In this document: piece after piece, positions 57,334-64,000 of the stretch
Layout: each line of letters starts with the position of its first letter
How positions within the stretch are numbered: the stretch's first letter is position 1
NCBI RefSeq assembly: GCF_001306135.1
Contig: NZ_LGKP01000040.1
Coordinates: 88,726-152,725, forward strand
Direction of reading: 5' to 3'
Source of the DNA: Herpetosiphon geysericola
GTDB lineage: Bacteria; Chloroflexota; Chloroflexia; Chloroflexales; Herpetosiphonaceae
DNA length: 64,000 nucleotides
Translations under genes and position numbers: made by a program
The notes under the pieces: generated by a model
What the model saw: only the letters and a program-made list of their open reading frames with translations
What the model was told of the DNA's origin: nothing
The model's database searches: none

Positions 57334-57481
57334 TGAGTATAATCCTTGCTTATTTATTGATACCATGTATCATTATAATCGATTTTCAAATTCGTCAAGC
57401 AGCATTTGACAAAAGCGCCAAATTAGGCTATACTTCAGCACTGTTGAACGGCAAAATTGCCGAAAGCAGACAAACAAATAA

Positions 57482-57557
57482 TCCCTGATAGCTCAGTTGG
57501 TAGAGCAATTGACTGTTAATCAATGGGTCCTAGGTTCGAGTCCTAGTCAGGGAGCCA
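57482..57557 (+). tRNA. tRNA-Asn (anticodon GTT), copy 1, CCA encoded
   Basis: Cloverleaf by hand: acceptor tccctga/tcaggga, D-arm gctc-agttggta-gagc, anticodon arm attga-ctGTTaa-tcaat, T-arm ctagg-ttcgagt-cctag, then gcca. Confidence 0.85.
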
Positions 57558-57578
57558 CTTTCTTTTACAAATTGATAA

Positions 57579-57654
57579 TCCCTGATAGCTCAGTTGGTAG
57601 AGCGGTTGACTGTTAATCAGCATGTCCTAGGTTCGAGTCCTAGTCAGGGAGCCA
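57579..57654 (+). tRNA. tRNA-Asn (anticodon GTT), copy 2, CCA encoded
   Basis: Same fold as copy 1; differs in anticodon stem and variable loop (gttga/tcagc, atgtc). Confidence 0.85.
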
Positions 57655-57986
57655 CAATCGACAAGCGTCCATCTGAGCAATCATTTGGGCGTTTGTCAAT
57701 TAAGCACAAAAAATAAAGCACTGCGTGAAACACAGTCGCTTGGTATCAATAAATAATCAGGGATAACCACCTTATTCCTGATTGGTGCAACTGGCAGCGG
57801 TAGCATGAATAGCTACCATTCATAAAACTGTCTCAGTTTGCCAAGAATCTTGTCCCCTTTATCTATTCAATTGGTAAGGTGCGTTGCTCTTATAGGGGTA
57901 ACTAGCTTATCGTGGTAAGACTGGTGAGCGTCGGCAAAACAACTTCAGTTTTTACCACAAATAGAACTAGCTCATCTTGCAGGTTT

Positions 57987-58250
57987 TTAGGCTGCTGTAA
58001 GATGAGCTAGTTCTATTTTAGATTCTGGATTTTCCTCAATTTCAACCAAGTCACCAAAATCGGCCAGCGAGATCCCTAAAGCCTCACAAAAACGAGCAAT
58101 CGTATCGCTTGTTAGATTGATATAGGGATTGTTTTTGATAGCCGATATTCGAGATTGAGAGATATTTGTAAGCTTGGACAAATCGGTGACTTGAATTTTT
58201 CTCCGCCACATAATTTCATCCAAGTTGTTGCGAAATATCCGTTTGCTCAT
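57987..58250 (-). CDS. XRE-family HTH protein (Cro/C1-type), array member 1
   Basis: LSKLTNISQSRISAIKN...ARFCEALGISLADF. The 3' end lies in a long hairpin (57962-58020). Confidence 0.65.
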   Translation of the reverse strand: MSKRIFRNNLDEIMWRRKIQVTDLSKLTNISQSRISAIKNNPYINLTSDTIARFCEALGISLADFGDLVEIEENPESKIELAHLTAA

Positions 58251-58324
58251 GGCTACCCCCTAATGGAATAGCTGAGATGATAGACTATAGTTGAGATATT
58301 GTCAATATAATGGATGAATAGTTA

Positions 58325-58546
58325 CTATGAAAGGCCGTCAATAACTTCTACAAGTTCATCAGGTTTCACACCTAAAACTCTACCAATAGCAAGCAAGGTT
58401 GAGTAATTTGCATCATGGCGATCATTGTTCCAGAGAGAGTACGCAGTTGCTTGGCCAATCTTTGCCTCGCGAGCCAGCTCGGCAGCCGTTTTGATACCTT
58501 GTTGCTGGGCTAATTCATGAATTTTAAATCGTAATAGCATTAGCAT
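58325..58546 (-). CDS. XRE-family HTH protein, array member 2
   Basis: IHELAQQQGIKTAAELAREAKIGQATAYSLWN. Confidence 0.65.
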   Translation of the reverse strand: MLMLLRFKIHELAQQQGIKTAAELAREAKIGQATAYSLWNNDRHDANYSTLLAIGRVLGVKPDELVEVIDGLS

Positions 58547-58579
58547 TCTTCTCGTATAAATAATGATGTAAACAATTTC

Positions 58580-59008
58580 TTATTCATAGATGATTAAATC
58601 ATCAATCTTAACACCTAATACATCAGCTATTGCTATTAAGGTATCGATATTTGGTTGATATGTTGATCCGTCCCATAACTTATACGCAGTTGTTTGACCT
58701 ATTTTAGCCTCACGGGCTAATTCTGCGGCAGTTGTTATGCCATGTTGCTGTGCAAGCTCTTTGATTCTCAACTTTGCCATAGTTTGATACCCTGCATGTA
58801 TGTCATCATCGGCTATCTGAGTTAATAGATCTCCTGGAGAAACCCCGAGGATTGTGCAAACCTTATCCAAAATAGGAAGATCTATGCGTGTTGTATAGCC
58901 ACGATAGAGACCTTTGGCAGTGTTATAGGAAATCTCAGCTTTATCCGCGAGATCTTGGATTGATAATCCCTTAGATTTAGCCAATATTCCTATATTCAAT
59001 ATAATCAT
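58580..59008 (-). CDS. tandem double-HTH XRE-family protein, array member 3
   Basis: Two consecutive HTH units: LAKSKGLSIQDLADKAEISYNTAKGLYRG... and IKELAQQHGITTAAELAREAKIGQTTAYKLWDG.... The second is near-identical to member 2. Confidence 0.65.
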   Translation of the reverse strand: MIILNIGILAKSKGLSIQDLADKAEISYNTAKGLYRGYTTRIDLPILDKVCTILGVSPGDLLTQIADDDIHAGYQTMAKLRIKELAQQHGITTAAELAREAKIGQTTAYKLWDGSTYQPNIDTLIAIADVLGVKIDDLIIYE

Positions 59009-59019
59009 TCAATCCTCCG

Positions 59020-59241
59020 CTACTCTACAGGCTCCTTCGTTCTTGGCTCGCGTACAAAAACTTCACCAGGCTCTATACCCAACGCTTCGCAAATACTATC
59101 AAGGGTTTTTAAGTCTATTCTGTTTATTCTACCTTTATATAAGCCATATGCTGTCGGATAAGATAGATGAGTTTCATCAGCAAATCGTTGTATATTCCAT
59201 CCTCGTTCATCAACAATCTCTCCAATACGCAAATAAATCAT
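59020..59241 (-). CDS. XRE-family HTH protein, array member 4
   Basis: IGEIVDERGWNIQRFADETHLSYPTAYGLYKG. Confidence 0.6.
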   Translation of the reverse strand: MIYLRIGEIVDERGWNIQRFADETHLSYPTAYGLYKGRINRIDLKTLDSICEALGIEPGEVFVREPRTKEPVE

Positions 59242-59328
59242 TGCTACTCCTGAATGTGTAAATCGTTATCTTGACTGTATAAAATATACCATATACTACG
59301 CAATCAATAAAAATAGTAATCTATTATA

Positions 59329-59357
59329 TTGACATTCTATAAAGCTAGATTTATAAT
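59329..59357 (+). promoter_or_regulatory. consensus sigma70-type promoter (TTGACA-17-TATAAT)
   Basis: Perfect hexamers at 59329-59334 and 59352-59357 with a 17-nt spacer. Followed by AGGAGG RBS and ATG 59388. Confidence 0.5.
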
Positions 59358-59387
59358 ATTATATAAATCATCAAGGAGGTTAAATCA

Positions 59388-59936
59388 ATGGCACACACAA
59401 AATCGGTCACCTACAACTTCAAGAATCGGGATTTCGATGCTTATGTGAACGGCGAATATGTTGGCTCATTCCCCACCGATCTGGATGCACGTATGGTCTG
59501 CAATCGCTTGGTATTGGAATTGATTGAACTGGATAATCGGGCCGTTGAGGAAGCTGAAGCAGTAATGGCCGTTACTGCTGTTCAATCAGCCACCGAAGCC
59601 AATGCTGATGCTGGTGAGGAATCGACTACCTTTTTAATGGATGAAGAAGCGCGCGCTGGAGTTGCTTCTTTCGAAGTCGTCGATTTGATTCCCATGCCTG
59701 TGGTCACGGCTACCACCTATGTGAATACGCCAATTGATGCACTTGCTCGCACCATGGTGATTTTGAGCCGCAACTGGCAACGCGCTATTCGCGCAGGCCG
59801 CTATGCTGATGCCGAACGTATCGAGGCCCATGAACAGGCCGTCCGCAGCCAATTCCGTTCCCTCTCCTGTCCCTCGCTCCCAATAACACTTGCTGCTCAG
59901 CAGCGGACAACGACCAGCCGCCGGATTAACTATTAA
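59388..59936 (+). CDS. hypothetical protein
   Basis: 182-aa ORF with a strong RBS, driven by the consensus promoter. Confidence 0.4.
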   Translation: MAHTKSVTYNFKNRDFDAYVNGEYVGSFPTDLDARMVCNRLVLELIELDNRAVEEAEAVMAVTAVQSATEANADAGEESTTFLMDEEARAGVASFEVVDLIPMPVVTATTYVNTPIDALARTMVILSRNWQRAIRAGRYADAERIEAHEQAVRSQFRSLSCPSLPITLAAQQRTTTSRRINY

Positions 59937-60029
59937 ACCCTTTACTGCTCGTCAAAGCAGCAAAGGGCCACATATGACCGAGGTACAGATTCGACCCCTA
60001 TGCCTCGGTCACGAAAAGGATGATAGCTG

Positions 60030-60341
60030 ATGGCACAGAACTATGTCAATTCCGATCGCTGCCAACGCTTGGCTCGCGCCAGCGCTATTGTGCAGCTCGC
60101 GACCATTATTCAGGAAGAAGAAGGCATCGACGATAACACAGCCTACACCTTGGCCGAGCAAGAGCTGGATGCAATCGTTGCCACCGAAGCAGCATGGCGT
60201 GAACCGCAAGCTGTCGCAACGCTCCGCATGCTACCAACGACCTGGGGTGTCGTGCTCGTGCGCAACTGCTCGCGCTTGGTTGTCCATCGTGCTGATGTTC
60301 CGGCTATTCTGGAAACCTTGACCCGTTGGGTTGCATCCTAA
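60030..60341 (+). CDS. hypothetical small protein, paralogue of 2623..2931
   Basis: ASAIVQLATIIQEEEGIDDNTAYTLAEQELDAIV versus VASHIVQLAVIVREAEGINDNDAYMVAEQIIDHV. Confidence 0.4.
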   Translation: MAQNYVNSDRCQRLARASAIVQLATIIQEEEGIDDNTAYTLAEQELDAIVATEAAWREPQAVATLRMLPTTWGVVLVRNCSRLVVHRADVPAILETLTRWVAS

Positions 60342-60362
60342 TTAATAGAGAGGATTATCGTT

Positions 60363-60713
60363 ATGGCTGATACCGCTCCAACCCAGGCAACCATTAAAGT
60401 TGAGCACCAGATTCACTTCACGCTTGATGGCTTTCCCTGCACAACCTCGGTCGCCGGTGCAACTGCCGATCAACTAAAGGTGGTTATTGATCGGTTAAAA
60501 GCGATCGGTGCGCAACCACCAACTGCGCATACGCTTCAACCAGCCACAGCCGCTGCGCAACCCAGTGCTCCTGCACAACGAACATGCCCAACGCATGGGA
60601 CAGCTTTGCAGCTGCGCCAAGGAACGCGGCGTGGCGGCAAGCCCTACAAATTTTGGAGCTGCAACCATACCGATGCTGATGGCAACTGGTGCGATCATAC
60701 TGAGAAGCCCTAG
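60363..60713 (+). CDS. small protein with a C-terminal topoisomerase-type C4 zinc ribbon
   Basis: CPTHGTALQLRQGTRRGGKPYKFWSCNHTDADGNWC resembles zf-C4_Topoisom (CPxCG...GKxGxFxGCsxyPxC). Confidence 0.45.
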   Translation: MADTAPTQATIKVEHQIHFTLDGFPCTTSVAGATADQLKVVIDRLKAIGAQPPTAHTLQPATAAAQPSAPAQRTCPTHGTALQLRQGTRRGGKPYKFWSCNHTDADGNWCDHTEKP

Positions 60714-60723
60714 CGGAGGATCT

Positions 60724-60954
60724 ATGGAATTAACCGCTGCGGCGATTCGTCGCTATGTGGCCACCCGCTTGGCCGCGCACATTGCTGACATACACGCGTT
60801 CCCTGGTCCACATCCTGAATGGGATGCTGGCTATCTTGATGGCTATGGGACGGCCTTGACCGATCTGACAGAATGGATACGAGAAACTCTTGGTGAAGTT
60901 CTCCCGCCACTCGTTGATCGCGAAGCCGATGGACTCGATATCGCGATTGACTGA
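60724..60954 (+). CDS. hypothetical small protein
   Basis: 76-aa ORF starting MELTAAAIRRY. Confidence 0.3.
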   Translation: MELTAAAIRRYVATRLAAHIADIHAFPGPHPEWDAGYLDGYGTALTDLTEWIRETLGEVLPPLVDREADGLDIAID

Positions 60955-61024
60955 CCGATGATGGATGACCCGCCAGCAGTTCAAATCAGGCTGTTGGCGG
61001 ATGTTTTTTTAGCGCGAAACGGTT

Positions 61025-62056
61025 ATGATAATGCACATTATACAAACCGCTGGAGAGTCGAGCATGAACGATGATTTTTCACTCGCCTTAACCACCCTTG
61101 CCACAACTACACCAACGGCAATCCAATCAACAACGAATCCTTTCATTGCCTATATTGCCAGTCTGCAAAGTGCCAATAGTCAACGCACCATGGAGAAGCA
61201 GCTGCATAGTTTGGCAACAATGATGGGCTTTACCGATGCGCATGTGGTTCCATGGGCGCAGCTGCGGGTTGAACATACCCAAGCCTTGTGGGCCAAGCTC
61301 GCCAGTAGCAAATCAGCAGCAACCGCCAACCTCATGCTCTCGGCATTACGCGGGGTGCTGAAAATGGCGTGGCGCATGGGTTTAATAAGTGGCGAGGACT
61401 ACACCCGAGCGGTCGATCTTAAAACGGTTAAAGGCAATACCCCTGATGCCGCAGCGGGCCGATCGCTGACCGCTGCCGAACTCCGTGCCTTGTTCGCAGC
61501 GTGTGCTGCTGATTCATCACCGGTTGGGCGGCGTGACGCAGCGATTCTAGCATTGGCCTATGCAGCTGGAGGTTTGCGGCGCGCCGAGATCGTCAATCTC
61601 GATCTGGCAGACTTCAATCCTGAAACGGCGATGCTGACTATTCGTGGCAAGGGGAACAAGGTTCGAACAGCATATGTACGCGGTGGTGCGCGTGATGCCC
61701 TCGACGAGTGGCTGGCAGTACGCGGCGATGAATCAGGGCCACTGTTTTGGCGCTTACAAGCTGGTGGTGTGGCAGGCCAGATGTATGAGCGCCTTAGTGA
61801 TCAGGCGATTTATATCTTGTGCCAGCGGCGGGGCAAGGAAGCGAATATCCGGCATTTCAGCCCACACGATATTCGGCGAACCTTTATTAGCGATCAACTC
61901 GATGCCGGAACCGATGTCTTGACCGTGGCTCGGCTCGCTGGCCATAGCAATGCCAACACCACCAGTCGCTATGATCGGCGGGGTGAGCGCGCAAAGCAAG
62001 CGGCGGCTGATGCATTGCATGTACCGTTTGTTTCCCTTATTGGTGATAATATATAA
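61025..62056 (+). CDS. tyrosine recombinase / phage-type integrase
   Basis: Catalytic R (GGLRRAEI), HDIRRTF and GHSNANTTSRY. The start is more likely at 61064 (GGAG RBS, MNDDFSL). Confidence 0.8.
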   Translation: MIMHIIQTAGESSMNDDFSLALTTLATTTPTAIQSTTNPFIAYIASLQSANSQRTMEKQLHSLATMMGFTDAHVVPWAQLRVEHTQALWAKLASSKSAATANLMLSALRGVLKMAWRMGLISGEDYTRAVDLKTVKGNTPDAAAGRSLTAAELRALFAACAADSSPVGRRDAAILALAYAAGGLRRAEIVNLDLADFNPETAMLTIRGKGNKVRTAYVRGGARDALDEWLAVRGDESGPLFWRLQAGGVAGQMYERLSDQAIYILCQRRGKEANIRHFSPHDIRRTFISDQLDAGTDVLTVARLAGHSNANTTSRYDRRGERAKQAAADALHVPFVSLIGDNI

Positions 62057-62128
62057 CTGATTAAAGTATGTCTATCTATTGAGAGTCACTGGATCTCGAG
62101 AAATTTGTATTTATTAGGAGATAACAAT

Positions 62129-63400
62129 ATGTCGGTATATATTACTCAAATCGAAGCATATAATATTCATGATAGATTTACAATTAAACAGTCTTTTCAA
62201 TCAGGGCTTAATATCATTTATGGAAATAATGGATCAGGAAAGACCACTTTATTGCATATAATAGCAAATATTCTTACAGGAGATCTTAGAAGATTGAAAT
62301 ATATTCAATTTTCTAGAATATTAATTGAATTCAGTAATTATAATCATATTATGATTTTGAATAATGAAAATTCTATTGATGTTTATATTAATAGCGATGA
62401 TTTTATTAAGTTATCAAAAAGAGGAAGCAATATTAATTCAGAATTAATAAATAAATTATTATTCAACAATCTATTATTTGATGTAGGGTATTTTCCTGCA
62501 TTTCGTACAATGATAGATGCATGGTTTTTTATGAATTTATCAGGAAATAATGAAAATAATAATAGTTCAAATTCAATAACAAAATTAGCAAGAGAAACTT
62601 TTAGCAATTTTATTCCCAATATAGATTATGTTTCTCCTATTGAAATCCAAGAAAAAATAAATGATGAAATAAAATCAGCAAGATTATCAATTTCTGATAT
62701 AGAAAATGAATTATTAGTAAATGCATTTTATAAAATGATTGATTTAGTGGCTAATAAAGATATAAAATCCTTGGAAGGTAAAAATAAAATAATTATGGAT
62801 ATACTTAGAATTATTAATCATGATAATAAATCCGTACTTAGAAGTTCTTTTTATCCAGAAAAAATCACTAATAAACTTCGTAATATATCAGATATAATTA
62901 ATTCAGAATATGATGAAAAAACGGATACAATAAATACAATTATACTTAGTATTTTCAGAGATATACTTAAGGATAGATCTAAGAAACAAACATTATTTTT
63001 ACGACACATAGAAAATTATTTAAGTTCTGTCAATGAATTCTTTGAAGATAAAAAGTTAGAATTTATCATATCAAGCAATAAAGATGGTCATGATGAGTAT
63101 AAGATATCTGTTACATCTAATAATAAAGTATATAATAATTTCCAATCTTTATCTTCAGGGGAGCGTCAAATTATTACTCTTCTATATACTGCAACATATA
63201 TGAGTTCTAAAGAAATAATACTAATAGATGAACCTGAGATATCCTTACATGTTGACTGGCAAAGACTTTTGCTAAAGAAATTAATGAGTCAAATAAAGGA
63301 TAAACGGCCAAAAAATAAACAGTTAATAGTATGTACACATTCTCCGTTTATATCTGCCGATCATATGGATCATATGAAAAAACTTGAAGTTGAAGGTTAA
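62129..63400 (+). CDS. ABC/SMC-like ATPase (AAA_15/AAA_21-type), AriA/AbiLi-like
   Basis: RBS AGGAG before ATG 62129. N-terminal ...GLNIIYGNNGSGKTTLLHIIANIL (Walker A), long helical insert, signature SSGERQ, Walker B ILIDEPE, D-loop SLH, H-loop CTHSP. Very AT-rich. Confidence 0.75.
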   Translation: MSVYITQIEAYNIHDRFTIKQSFQSGLNIIYGNNGSGKTTLLHIIANILTGDLRRLKYIQFSRILIEFSNYNHIMILNNENSIDVYINSDDFIKLSKRGSNINSELINKLLFNNLLFDVGYFPAFRTMIDAWFFMNLSGNNENNNSSNSITKLARETFSNFIPNIDYVSPIEIQEKINDEIKSARLSISDIENELLVNAFYKMIDLVANKDIKSLEGKNKIIMDILRIINHDNKSVLRSSFYPEKITNKLRNISDIINSEYDEKTDTINTIILSIFRDILKDRSKKQTLFLRHIENYLSSVNEFFEDKKLEFIISSNKDGHDEYKISVTSNNKVYNNFQSLSSGERQIITLLYTATYMSSKEIILIDEPEISLHVDWQRLLLKKLMSQIKDKRPKNKQLIVCTHSPFISADHMDHMKKLEVEG

Positions 63401-63405
63401 TTATA

Positions 63406-64000
63406 TGCAAAGAGATATAAGAATGGATATGGATGTATATTTAACGTATATTACAATGAGTAACAAGAAACATATCTTAGTTGAAGGAAATAGTGATCAA
63501 GAGATGATCTCTAAGTTTACCGAACGATTAGTTGAAAAATATAGTAATTTTTTAGGTAATATAGATATTGATATTGTTGGAGAACTTCTAAGGTCTTGTA
63601 TAGAAAATGTTAGAGAAAGAGTGTTATTTATAAGTGATTTTGTTAATTATAAAATAAAACCAAAAAATTTTTTAAGTTTTATTGATCGTGAATTTTGGGG
63701 GTTTATTATTGAACCAAATATAGTTGATATTATCTCAAATCATAATGTTGATGGATTAACGATTTGTTCTAGAGGACATTCCATAGAAAATTATTTATTC
63801 AATTCTACTATATTAGGAGAAGTATTTTACAATCTCTCAAGTCTTAATAATAATCAAAAAAACATGGCGATTATATTATTCAAGAAAATATTTATTGATT
63901 CATTAAAAACAGCTTGCGCTATAAGTATAACAGCATTTCTTTTTAATAAAATCAATAAAATTAACAAAGACCCATTTCATAAATATATAGAAATAAATGA
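63406..64000 (+). CDS. OLD/DUF4435-type Toprim-like putative nuclease (AriB/AbiLii-like), truncated by the window end
   Basis: Hand translation MQRDIRMDMDVYLTYITMSNKKHILVEGNSDQEMISKF...FIDREFWGF...RGHSIENYLF. The VEGxSD glutamate, the DRE acidic pair and HSxENY are the pattern I associate with OLD-family Toprim/DUF4435 proteins. Starts 5 nt after the ATPase stop. Confidence 0.55.

What the first reader, a model, noticed from the sequence alone, without database searches (positions are those of the whole stretch)
62129..64000. Very AT-rich two-gene ABC-ATPase plus DUF4435/OLD-Toprim-like module (PARIS/AbiL-like architecture) in a tRNA-Asn island
The last 1.9 kb of the window falls from about 50% to roughly 25-30% G+C. 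It encodes a 423-aa SMC/RecF-like ABC ATPase (Walker A GSGKTTLL, signature SSGERQ, Walker B ILIDEPE, H-loop CTHSP). Five nt downstream is a protein whose N-terminus carries HILVEGNSDQE, IDREF and GHSIENY. I recognise these as the split form of OLD-family nucleases (ATPase plus Toprim/DUF4435), as in the PARIS AriA/AriB and AbiL abortive-infection pairs. The pair sits right after a tyrosine integrase in an island next to tRNA-Asn. The base composition implies recent acquisition from a low-GC donor, and a Chloroflexi-like host would be unusual for this family. The Toprim gene is truncated by the window, so further partner genes downstream cannot be excluded, and the complete system could be a new variant.
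Basis: partly seen in the sequence, partly recalled or inferred. Interest (0 to 1): 0.75.

Follow-up and report, generated by a model that had tools for sequence, protein, structure and literature searches.

The report
PARIS anti-phage pair in Herpetosiphon prophage
The very AT-rich last 1.9 kb of the window encodes a two-gene PARIS anti-phage system (AriA sensor ATPase plus AriB tRNA-cutting Toprim nuclease) sitting just after the integrase of a prophage in Herpetosiphon geysericola; it is a divergent new member of a well-characterised family, not a new kind of system.

Summary
G+C falls from about 0.51 to 0.24 at 62.0-64.0 kb (z about -7). The source is Herpetosiphon geysericola (Chloroflexota).

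ORF A (423 aa) matches solved E. coli AriA over its full length (E 2e-63, 34% identity). Its predicted fold matches only AriA chains well (TM 0.74-0.87; next-best ABC ATPases 0.34-0.45). ORF B (316-322 aa in full; 198 aa lie in the window) matches solved AriB (E 4e-21; 2.8e-77 with a five-sequence profile). All five Toprim acidic residues are kept. So this is a PARIS system.

The syntenic H. gulosus locus has the same backbone (integrase 94% identical) and continues into endolysin, terminase, portal and scaffold genes. The element is therefore most likely a prophage. Its AriA/AriB pair is only 38%/34% identical to this one, which points to a defence hotspot with exchanged alleles.

Three side-claims fail:
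- The low G+C is a family trait: 70 of 71 pairs are AT-richer than their flanks.
- Chloroflexota hosts are common: 17 of 76 loci.
- No third gene is seen in the syntenic locus.

Verdict: new member of a known kind, modest interest.

The parts
62129..63400 (+). ariA homologue: 423-aa ABC ATPase, the sensor/scaffold subunit of PARIS. Walker A is at 62222-62248 (K38 = E. coli K39). The AriA-specific YFPAFRTMIDAW motif is at 62489-62524. The ABC signature LSSGERQ is at 63149-63169. Walker B ILIDEPE is at 63218-63238 (E368 = E. coli E393). The H-loop VCTHSP is at 63329-63346.
   Evidence: PDB phmmer against AriA 8v45_A/8ux9_B gives E 2e-63, residues 5-418 against 6-438 of 464, at 34% identity. The best PADLOC model is AriA PDLC04164 at 9.7e-27. 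Pfam gives AAA_15 at 8.5e-19 and AAA_21 at 1.3e-18. The AF2 model has pLDDT 84.9 and pTM 0.82. The 16 best PDB fold matches are all AriA (TM 0.57-0.87; 0.74-0.87 for the 14 best), and the next matches are Rad50 and retron PtuA at TM 0.34-0.45. phrog_7507 matches at 9.5e-50.
63405..64000 (+). ariB homologue, N-terminal 198 of about 322 codons (alternative start at ATG 63423, which gives the 316-aa P0001). It is a DUF4435/Toprim nuclease, the effector. The Toprim acidic residues, in P0001 numbering, are E21 and D25 (63474-63497), D88 and E90 (63678-63695) and E122 (63774-63794). The gene is cut by the window end and should finish near coordinate 64373.
   Evidence: The full-length protein P0001 is 100% identical over the part seen. 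PDB phmmer against AriB 8ux9_A gives E 4.2e-21. A five-sequence profile gives E 2.8e-77 over 2-320 against 3-307 of 316. The PADLOC AriB model PDLC02983 gives 1.5e-10, 39.6 bits. The five acidic residues are invariant in alignment A1 and correspond to E26, D30, D88, E90 and E122 of E. coli AriB (PMC11464382).
62031..62128 (+). Left junction of the AT-rich cassette. Similarity to the H. gulosus backbone stops in the last codons of the integrase gene. A 72-nt AT-rich leader follows, with the ribosome-binding site AGGAG at 62116-62120. No terminator-like site separates int from ariA.
   Evidence: The blastn block at 88.6% identity ends at window 62031 / L001 7931. The junction is aligned. Sequence. 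The promoter and terminator scan found 0 terminators and no more promoter-like sites than in shuffles.
61025..62056 (+). Tyrosine integrase of the mobile element, immediately upstream of the pair. It is context and marks the hotspot.
   Evidence: Pfam Phage_integrase 4.6e-25 and Phage_int_SAM_1 4.8e-07. phrog_1 integrase 1.6e-38. 94% aa identity to the H. gulosus prophage integrase.
57987..59241 (-). Cluster of four cI/Cro-type HTH genes, one of them a double HTH. This is the putative immunity region of the same element (context).
   Evidence: HTH_26 at E 1e-09 to 7e-29; PHROG transcriptional repressor families.
57482..57654 (+). Two tandem tRNA-Asn(GUU) genes (57482-57557 and 57579-57654) next to which the element lies. 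They are the probable integration site (context).
   Evidence: ARAGORN. The same tandem pair lies at the same place in H. gulosus, and each copy is 100% identical to its orthologue.

Best explanation
The two genes are a PARIS (phage anti-restriction-induced system) defence module, ariA followed by ariB. They occupy a variable slot immediately 3' of the integrase gene of a temperate-phage-like element next to the tandem tRNA-Asn genes of Herpetosiphon geysericola.

By homology with the E. coli B185 system, the likely mechanism is as follows. AriA, an ABC ATPase, assembles into a hexameric scaffold that holds AriB monomers inactive. An incoming phage protein is detected in an ATP-dependent way through loops lining the pores of AriA. 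AriB is then released, dimerises, and uses its two-metal Toprim site to nick the anticodon stem-loop of particular host tRNAs. Translation stops and the infection aborts, which protects the lysogen population and the prophage.

What is shown here:
- both proteins are homologous to the solved proteins over their full length;
- the ATPase and nuclease catalytic residues are conserved;
- the gene order matches;
- the syntenic H. gulosus locus is a prophage.

What is inferred:
- complex formation;
- the trigger, which is probably not Ocr, because the central-pore loop that carries R116/R119 in E. coli is largely deleted here;
- the tRNA targets, because the E. coli 'tweezer' lysines K60 and K64 and the arginines R28 and R31 are not conserved;
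- that the unseen right-hand part of the H. geysericola element also encodes phage structural genes.

The pair was most likely placed in this slot by cassette exchange, not by divergence in place.
For: Sequence:
- ORF A against solved AriA: E 2e-63 over the full length, 34% identity.
- ORF B (P0001) against solved AriB: E 4.2e-21; five-sequence profile E 2.8e-77 over the full length; 27% identity.

Fold: the AF2 model of ORF A (pLDDT 84.9) matches AriA chains at TM 0.74-0.87 (E down to 1e-33). The best non-AriA matches are at TM 0.34-0.45.

Catalytic residues: Walker A K38, Walker B E368, the signature and the H-loop in ORF A. E21, D25, D88, E90 and E122 in ORF B are invariant in A1 and equal E. 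coli E26, D30, D88, E90 and E122 (PMC11464382).

Operational definition of Rousset et al. 2022 (AAA_15 at 32 bits or more, or AAA_21 at 27 or more, next to DUF4435 at 27 or more; PMC9122126): met with the PADLOC copies of those profiles, at 78.1, 66.7 and 39.6 bits.

Family behaviour: an AriA-like gene lies upstream on the same strand in 70 of 72 AriB-like genome loci. ORF B has 354 representative relatives at E<=1e-3, one of them a 709-aa fusion.

Prophage and hotspot:
- The window and H. gulosus L001 share 79-95% nucleotide identity from cobW to the end of int, and the integrase is 94% identical in protein.
- The pairs themselves are only 38% and 34% identical.
- L001 continues into endolysin, large terminase, portal and scaffold genes.
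- The window has a cI/Cro cluster.
- PARIS in prophage and satellite hotspots next to integrases is documented (PMC9122126) and was seen here in a Pantoea P4-like satellite.
Against: - No experiment bears on this particular pair.
- The current Pfam-A gives no DUF4435 hit for ORF B, and OLD-like_TOPRIM reaches only E 0.04-0.07. Canonical AriB also fails that scan.
- No NCBIfam model reaches its cut-off.
- Identity to the characterised system is low (34% and 27%).
- The trigger-sensing loop and several AriA-AriB and AriB-tRNA contact residues of E. coli are not conserved. Trigger, target and even stoichiometry could therefore differ.
- DNA beyond 64000 could not be retrieved. The end of ariB, the right junction of the cassette and the phage nature of the H. 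geysericola element rest on P0001 and on synteny with H. gulosus.
- No relative was found in 50,697 deposited phage genomes, apart from weak partial ATPase hits.
Confidence: 0.85

Rival explanations
1. The pair acts mainly as a toxin-antitoxin-like addiction module. AriB is the toxin and AriA the antitoxin. Its role would be to stabilise the prophage or the hotspot cassette, not to defend against phage.
For: PDB depositors label AriA 'antitoxin'. AriA sequesters a toxic nuclease (PMC11464382). The pair sits in a mobile element next to the integrase.
Against: The characterised homologues give phage-triggered abortive infection (PMC9122126, PMC11464382). The gene order and the conserved ATPase site argue for a sensor and not a labile antitoxin. 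The two roles do not exclude each other.
Confidence: 0.07
2. It is an AbiL-type system (AbiLi ATPase plus AbiLii) or another OLD-family relative (class 1 OLD, Gabija, Septu/retron PtuAB, MADS3-4), not PARIS.
For: ORF A also matches the AbiLi (7.4e-15), PtuA (about 1e-18), mad3 (3.1e-18) and GajA (about 1e-13) models, because all share the AAA_15/21 ATPase.
Against: - The AriA models score best (9.7e-27). The PDB match to AriA is 2e-63 over the full length, against 3e-08 partial for PtuA.
- The fold match separates AriA (TM 0.74-0.87) from retron PtuA and Rad50 (0.45 or less).
- ORF B matches only the AriB and AriAB models, and no AbiLii, PtuB/HNH or GajB model at E<=10.
- ATPase and Toprim are separate proteins, unlike OLD and GajA.
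- No helicase or HNH gene follows the pair in the syntenic locus.
Confidence: 0.03
3. The cassette is a decaying or silenced passenger: horizontally acquired AT-rich DNA that is poorly expressed or non-functional in a 51% G+C host.
For: It has the most extreme composition of 72 pairs: G+C 0.24, third-position G+C 0.15, and 42 of 87 Ile codons are ATA. No convincing promoter was found. ORF A is the shortest AriA among the top 120 relatives, and its pore loop is truncated.
Against: Both reading frames are intact over 423 and 316-322 codons, although AT-rich DNA is rich in stop codons. All catalytic residues are kept. Good ribosome-binding sites precede both genes. The AF2 model is confident. AT-richness is the norm for the family.
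Confidence: 0.05

Closest known systems
PARIS of E. coli B185 (AriA/AriB; PDB 8UX9, 8V45-8V49; Rousset 2022, Burman 2024, Deep 2024, Belukhina 2025)
   Same: - Two adjacent co-oriented genes: an ABC ATPase of AAA_15/21 type, then a DUF4435/Toprim protein of about 316 aa.
- Full-length sequence homology of both proteins.
- The same fold for AriA.
- The same catalytic residues in both.
- Carried by a mobile element next to an integrase.
   Different: - Only 34% (AriA) and 27% (AriB) identity.
- AriA is about 41 aa shorter, mostly through loss of the central-pore loop that holds the Ocr-binding R116/R119.
- AriB R28/R31 are N23/Q26 here, and K60/K64 are not conserved.
- The host is Chloroflexota, and the carrier is a siphovirus-like prophage with an SPP1-type portal, not a P4-like satellite.
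- G+C is 0.24 in a 0.51 genome region.
H. gulosus prophage PARIS pair (locus L001, BAABRU010000004.1)
   Same: - The same chromosomal site (cobW, then two tRNA-Asn genes).
- The same element backbone (79-95% nucleotide identity; integrase 94% aa).
- The same slot directly after int.
- The same two-gene architecture and similar AT-richness (G+C 0.27).
   Different: The proteins are only 38% (AriA) and 34% (AriB) identical. This is hardly closer than either is to E. coli PARIS, so they are different alleles in one hotspot. The H. gulosus element also carries a 577-aa OLD/GajA-like ATPase-Toprim gene in its immunity region, where the window has two HTH genes.
AbiL (AbiLi/AbiLii) and other OLD-family defence systems (P2 Old, Gabija GajA/GajB, Septu and retron PtuAB, MADS3-4)
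   Same: They share the AAA_15/21 ABC ATPase. Old, GajA, AbiL and MADS also share a Toprim nuclease, and all act as an ATPase sensor plus nuclease effector (PMC11464382).
   Different: Old and GajA fuse the ATPase and the Toprim domain. Gabija needs a UvrD-like helicase. Septu and retrons use an HNH protein. MADS is a multi-gene system. None of these partners is present here, and the models for these systems score far below the AriA and AriB models.

Membership tests
PARIS (AriA/AriB) | Two adjacent, co-oriented genes: the ATPase first, then the DUF4435 protein (or a fusion of the two) | tested here: met
   ORF A is 62129-63400 and ORF B starts at 63405, on the same strand with a 4-nt gap.
PARIS (AriA/AriB) | AriA: ABC ATPase that matches AAA_15 (32 bits or more) or AAA_21 (27 bits or more), with intact Walker A Lys and Walker B Glu | tested here: met
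   AAA_15 scores 68.8 bits and AAA_21 68.6 bits. K38 and E368 align with E. coli K39 and E393.
PARIS (AriA/AriB) | AriA: full-length homology and fold of solved AriA, including the insertions that set it apart from Rad50 | tested here: met
   phmmer gives E 2e-63 over 5-418 against 6-438 of 464. The IS1 and IS2 regions align, with an invariant YFPAFRTM motif. Foldseek gives TM 0.74-0.87 to AriA and 0.45 or less to all others.
PARIS (AriA/AriB) | AriB: DUF4435 (PF14491) match at 27 bits or more, the rule of Rousset et al. 2022 | tested here: inconclusive
   Met with the PADLOC AriB profile PDLC02983: 39.6 bits and E 1.5e-10 for the full protein, 31.3 bits for the part in the window. NCBI names P0001 'DUF4435 domain-containing protein'. 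Not met with the current Pfam-A copy, which gives no hit at E<=10. Canonical E. coli AriB and three other partners also fail that copy, so the test does not discriminate.
PARIS (AriA/AriB) | AriB: Toprim two-metal acidic residues (E26, D30, D88, E90, E122 in E. coli) and full-length homology to solved AriB | tested here: met
   E21, D25, D88, E90 and E122 are conserved and invariant in A1. The profile against 8ux9_A gives E 2.8e-77 over 2-320 against 3-307 of 316.
PARIS (AriA/AriB) | AriA hexamer that sequesters AriB; trigger- and ATP-dependent release; AriB dimer cleaves tRNA; abortive-infection phenotype | not testable with these tools
   This needs biochemistry and phage assays. The E. coli interface residues R28/R31 and the pore residues R116/R119 are not conserved, as the literature expects for divergent clades.
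AbiL (AbiLi/AbiLii) | The second protein matches AbiLii models, and the ATPase matches AbiLi best | tested here: not met
   ORF B matches no AbiLii model at E<=10. AbiLi scores 7.4e-15 against 9.7e-27 for AriA.
Gabija / class 1 OLD | ATPase and Toprim in one polypeptide; Gabija also has a UvrD-like helicase GajB | tested here: not met
   A stop codon and a new start separate the two domains. No helicase lies downstream in the syntenic L001. The sequence downstream in the window's own genome was not seen.
Septu / retron PtuAB | PtuA ATPase paired with an HNH nuclease PtuB | tested here: not met
   ORF B has no HNH match. The PtuA match is partial only (NCBIfam 39.7 bits against a cut-off of 500; PDB 3e-08).
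Housekeeping RecF/SbcC/Rad50 ATPases | Match above the curated cut-off to RecF, SbcC or SMC models; fold closest to Rad50/SMC | tested here: not met
   recf TIGR00611 scores 23.3 bits against a cut-off of 172. SMC_N scores 28.1 against 40. Rad50 structures match at TM 0.34-0.40.

The most novel reading that the evidence does not exclude
This compact PARIS allele has a truncated central-pore loop and non-conserved AriB tRNA-contact residues. It may recognise a different class of phage trigger and cut a different tRNA set than E. coli PARIS. The slot 3' of int in Herpetosiphon prophages would then be a hotspot where deeply divergent PARIS alleles are exchanged to change that specificity.

A more speculative extension concerns codon use. 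The family-wide AT-richness is extreme here: Asn AAT 61 of 65 codons, Lys AAA 39 of 50, Ile ATA 42 of 87. This could make expression of the system itself depend on the very A/U-decoding tRNAs (Lys-UUU, Asn-GUU) that AriB destroys, which would give a built-in shut-off or dosage control. The adjacent tandem tRNA-Asn genes carry the E. coli AriB cleavage motif UAAUC|A.
Probability: 0.3. Interest if true: 0.4.

Novelty: new member of a known kind. Interest (0 to 1): 0.25.

Why it matters
The finding places a clear PARIS system in a cultivated Chloroflexota predator (Herpetosiphon), carried by a prophage. It gives a natural pair of very divergent alleles in one otherwise near-identical prophage backbone, which could serve to map what determines trigger and tRNA specificity in PARIS.

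It also documents two practical points. The current Pfam DUF4435 model misses bona fide AriB proteins, including the canonical one. Strong AT-bias relative to the host is a general property of PARIS cassettes, so low G+C alone should not be read as recent transfer from a low-G+C donor. None of this changes what is known about how PARIS works.

Tried and rejected
- Extending the contig. Exact-product look-ups for ORF A (both starts), the integrase and P0001 all returned nothing. A genome-contig scan with ORF A found no relative. The source genome is apparently not retrievable, so sequence past 64000 was not seen.
- Pfam-A DUF4435/OLD Toprim test on ORF B. It was negative. I rejected it as a discriminating test after the control with canonical AriB and other partners was also negative.
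- NCBIfam. Nothing reached its cut-off.
- Word-indexed protein search with ORF B. It found only the protein itself. The exhaustive HMMER search was needed to show the family.
- Deposited phage genomes. They gave only weak partial ATPase hits for ORF A and none for ORF B. No known phage relative exists.
- Promoter and terminator scan of 61900-64000. The number of promoter-like sites equals that in shuffles, and there are no terminators. It is uninformative in AT-rich DNA.
- Repeat search for att-like or cassette-flanking repeats in 57400-64000. Nothing flanks the cassette. The right end is outside the window.
- tblastn of the window integrase against the 81 loci, to count integrase neighbours. 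Only L001 matched. The search is too insensitive to say anything.
- AbiL, Gabija, Septu, class 1 OLD, MADS and RecF/SbcC were considered and rejected (see the membership tests).
- I did not predict an AriB structure. Only P0001 was eligible for the alignment, and the sequence evidence was already decisive. The third large protein search was not spent.
Full report
1. The observation

The last 2 kb of the window is by far its most AT-rich part. In 400-nt windows, G+C drops from 0.565-0.585 at 61200-61999 to 0.215-0.287 from 62000 to the end. In 1-kb bins, the first 62 bins average 0.513 (sd 0.038, minimum 0.39). The last two bins are 0.240 and 0.256, z about -7.

ORF A is 62129..63400 (+), 423 aa, with AGGAG 8 nt upstream of the ATG. 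ORF B starts at 63405, 4 nt after the stop of ORF A, and runs off the window after 198 codons. Upstream lie a tyrosine integrase (61025..62056), a cluster of four cI/Cro-type HTH genes (57987..59241, minus strand) and two tandem tRNA-Asn(GTT) genes.

2. Source and the missing end of ORF B

A search of the large protein collection returned a 423-aa protein identical to ORF A and a 316-aa protein identical to ORF B over the part seen. Both come from Herpetosiphon geysericola (Chloroflexota, Chloroflexia) on a 281,525-bp contig. NCBI starts ORF B at the in-frame ATG at 63423. The ATG at 63405 has the better Shine-Dalgarno sequence (GAAGG) and gives 322 aa. Either way the gene should end about 373 nt beyond the window.

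The genome itself could not be retrieved. What lies after ariB in this organism was therefore not seen.

3. What the two proteins are

ORF A:
- It matches Pfam AAA_15 and AAA_21 above their cut-offs.
- Its best anti-phage model is AriA (9.7e-27). PtuA, mad3, AbiLi and GajA score lower, because they share the ATPase class.
- Against solved structures it matches E. coli AriA over its whole length (E 2e-63; residues 5-418 against 6-438 of 464; 34% identity). The next match is retron PtuA at 3e-08 over about 100 residues.
- An AlphaFold2 model built on 66 homologues (pLDDT 84.9, pTM 0.82) matches AriA chains for its 16 best PDB hits (TM 0.57-0.87; 0.74-0.87 for the 14 best; E down to 1e-33). There is then a sharp drop to Rad50, SMC and retron PtuA (TM 0.34-0.45, E about 1e-11).
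- Walker A K38 and Walker B E368 align with E. coli K39 and E393, whose mutation abolishes trigger binding and ATPase activity.

ORF B (full-length P0001):
- It matches solved AriB at E 4.2e-21.
- A profile of P0001 with four partner proteins found next to AriA homologues matches AriB at E 2.8e-77 over essentially the whole protein.
- The five acidic Toprim residues of E. coli AriB (E26, D30, D88, E90, E122) are E21, D25, D88, E90 and E122 here. They are invariant in the alignment, and all five lie inside the window.
- The PADLOC AriB profile scores 39.6 bits.

With AAA_15 and AAA_21 at 78 and 67 bits in the PADLOC copies, the pair meets the operational definition used when PARIS was described.

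4. The Pfam discrepancy

The current Pfam-A gives ORF B no DUF4435 hit, and OLD-like_TOPRIM reaches only E 0.04-0.07. I ran a control. Residues 8-260 of canonical E. coli AriB, and the partners from H. gulosus, Pantoea and Microcoleus, also give no DUF4435 hit in this library. One Chloroflexia partner reaches 26.2 bits, just under the cut-off. The negative result reflects the model and not the protein.

5. Family behaviour

An exhaustive HMMER search finds 354 representative clusters related to ORF B at E<=1e-3, and 217 at <=1e-10. The closest is only 30-37% identical, and one is a 709-aa fusion protein.

A scan of species-representative genomes with the AriB profile gave 76 loci. 17 are from Chloroflexota (Chloroflexia, Chloroflexaceae, Anaerolineae, Dehalococcoidia, Caldilineaceae). 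Most of the others are cyanobacterial, and some are proteobacterial or from other phyla. In 70 of the 72 loci where I could confirm the AriB-like match, an AriA-like ORF lies upstream on the same strand, within 600 nt in 68 of them. The two exceptions are contigs that end just upstream of the match. A Chloroflexota host is therefore not unusual, and the two-gene unit is the conserved module.

6. Genomic setting: a prophage hotspot

The closest AriA relative (38% identity) is in Herpetosiphon gulosus. Its locus (L001) is syntenic with the window: cobW, two tRNA-Asn genes, HTH genes, small ORFs, integrase, AriA-like gene, then a 320-aa partner (34% identical to P0001; PADLOC AriB 1.6e-18).

Nucleotide identity between the two species is 79-95% from cobW to within the last codons of int, and the integrase is 94% identical in protein. 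Similarity then collapses. After its pair, L001 returns to G+C 0.56-0.63 and encodes an Amidase_2 endolysin, a large terminase, an SPP1-type portal, a scaffold protein and a capsid protein.

The element is therefore a prophage in H. gulosus and, by synteny, most likely in H. geysericola. A backbone about 88% identical that carries pairs about 35% identical is best explained by exchange of cassettes in a hotspot just 3' of int. This matches the defence hotspots described for P2/P4 and other prophages. A Pantoea homologue found here sits in the classical P4-satellite hotspot between psu/delta and int.

7. Base composition

The pair has G+C 0.24 (third-position G+C 0.15), against 0.51 for the rest of the window. 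Across 71 other AriA/AriB pairs, the pair is AT-richer than its flanks in 70 (median -0.107, range -0.253 to +0.002). The hosts' flanks range from 0.33 to 0.67 G+C. The very different H. gulosus allele is also at 0.27.

The window's pair is the most extreme case (-0.272), but the direction is a family property. 'Recent acquisition from a low-G+C donor' is possible, but the composition does not imply it.

8. Likely mechanism, and what differs

By homology with the E. coli system, the model is this. AriA forms a hexameric scaffold that holds AriB inactive. ATP-dependent recognition of a phage protein releases AriB. AriB then dimerises and nicks the anticodon stem-loop of selected tRNAs (Lys-UUU, Thr-UGU and, more weakly, Asn-GUU in E. 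coli). Translation stops. Only homology and residue conservation are shown here; the rest is inferred.

The differences are these:
- ORF A is the shortest AriA among its top 120 relatives.
- It lacks most of the central-pore loop that carries the Ocr-binding R116/R119 in E. coli. That region is hypervariable in length across homologues, as the literature reports for trigger-sensing pores.
- AriB R28/R31, which form salt bridges to AriA (R28 also contacts the tRNA D-loop), are N23/Q26 here.
- The 'tweezer' lysines K60 and K64 are not conserved.

Trigger and tRNA specificity are therefore probably different.

9. Rivals

AbiL, Gabija, class 1 OLD, Septu/retron PtuAB, MADS and housekeeping RecF/SbcC were each tested and fail on partner identity, domain fusion, model scores or fold. 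A toxin-antitoxin or addiction role and a silenced-passenger state cannot be excluded without experiments. They are compatible with the same molecular identity.

10. Verdict

This is a genuine and apparently intact PARIS system. It is a divergent new member of a known and mechanistically understood family, in a setting (a prophage hotspot next to an integrase) that is itself a known theme. Interest is modest. The most useful aspects are the pair of deeply divergent alleles in one prophage backbone and the two methodological notes (the Pfam false negative, and AT-bias as a family trait).

Noticed in passing
window 57482-57557 and 57579-57654: The two tandem tRNA-Asn(GUU) genes differ only by compensatory changes at the top of the anticodon stem and in the variable loop (positions 26-27 and 42-45). 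Each copy is 100% identical to its H. gulosus orthologue. Both carry U36AAUC|A41 and U16U17, the determinants reported for cleavage by E. coli AriB. I could not test whether copy 2 is chromosomal or brought by the prophage, or whether either copy is a target.
   Followed up: partly
window 58019-58984 against L001 2326-4413: This is a second variable slot in the same element backbone. The window has two HTH_26 genes (one a double HTH). H. gulosus has an AT-rich 577-aa ATPase-Toprim protein of OLD/GajA type (PADLOC GajA 9.8e-25, ATPase-Toprim_I-B 9.3e-22, Old 3.6e-17). The H. gulosus prophage thus carries two OLD-family systems.
   Followed up: partly
window 57959-58018: A near-perfect palindrome (24-nt arms, 96% complementary, 12-nt loop) sits exactly where similarity to H. 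gulosus breaks at the edge of the second variable slot. It is also present in L001 at 2266-2325. It could be a terminator or a recombination site.
   Followed up: no
window 58291-58323 and 59311-59343: A 33-nt inverted repeat (76% complementary) with a TTGACA...TATAAT-like core lies in the two intergenic regions that flank the HTH genes. These are candidate operator/promoter sites of the immunity region.
   Followed up: no
L002 6001-8483 (same locus as L008), Microcoleus asticus: An AriA/AriB-like pair lies inside a type III-A CRISPR-Cas operon, between the last csm RAMP gene and cas6, in the same orientation.
   Followed up: no
L003 6001-8312, Pantoea ananatis: An AriA homologue 35% identical to ORF A, with its partner, sits in a P4-like satellite between psu/ogr-delta and the integrase, next to smpB. 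This is the classical PARIS hotspot.
   Followed up: no
ORF B; L001, L002, L003 and L010 partners; E. coli AriB: The Pfam-A DUF4435 (PF14491.11) model in the current library gives no hit to canonical E. coli AriB residues 8-260 or to three of four other AriB-like partners. An older copy of the profile in PADLOC does detect them. Pipelines that rely on current Pfam will miss PARIS.
   Followed up: yes
window 62129-64000 and 71 other loci: AriA/AriB pairs are AT-richer than their flanks in 70 of 71 loci (median -0.107). In the window pair, Asn is AAT in 61 of 65 codons, Lys is AAA in 39 of 50, and Ile is ATA in 42 of 87. The system's own translation therefore leans on the A/U-decoding tRNAs that E. 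coli AriB cleaves. The reason for this bias is unexplained.
   Followed up: partly
window 60363-60713: A 116-aa ORF in the element's early region has a C-terminal Cys/His-rich stretch (CPTHG...WSCNH...WCDH). It gives only a weak PHROG hit (phrog_364, 5.4e-4). It is conserved in H. gulosus. Its function is unknown.
   Followed up: no
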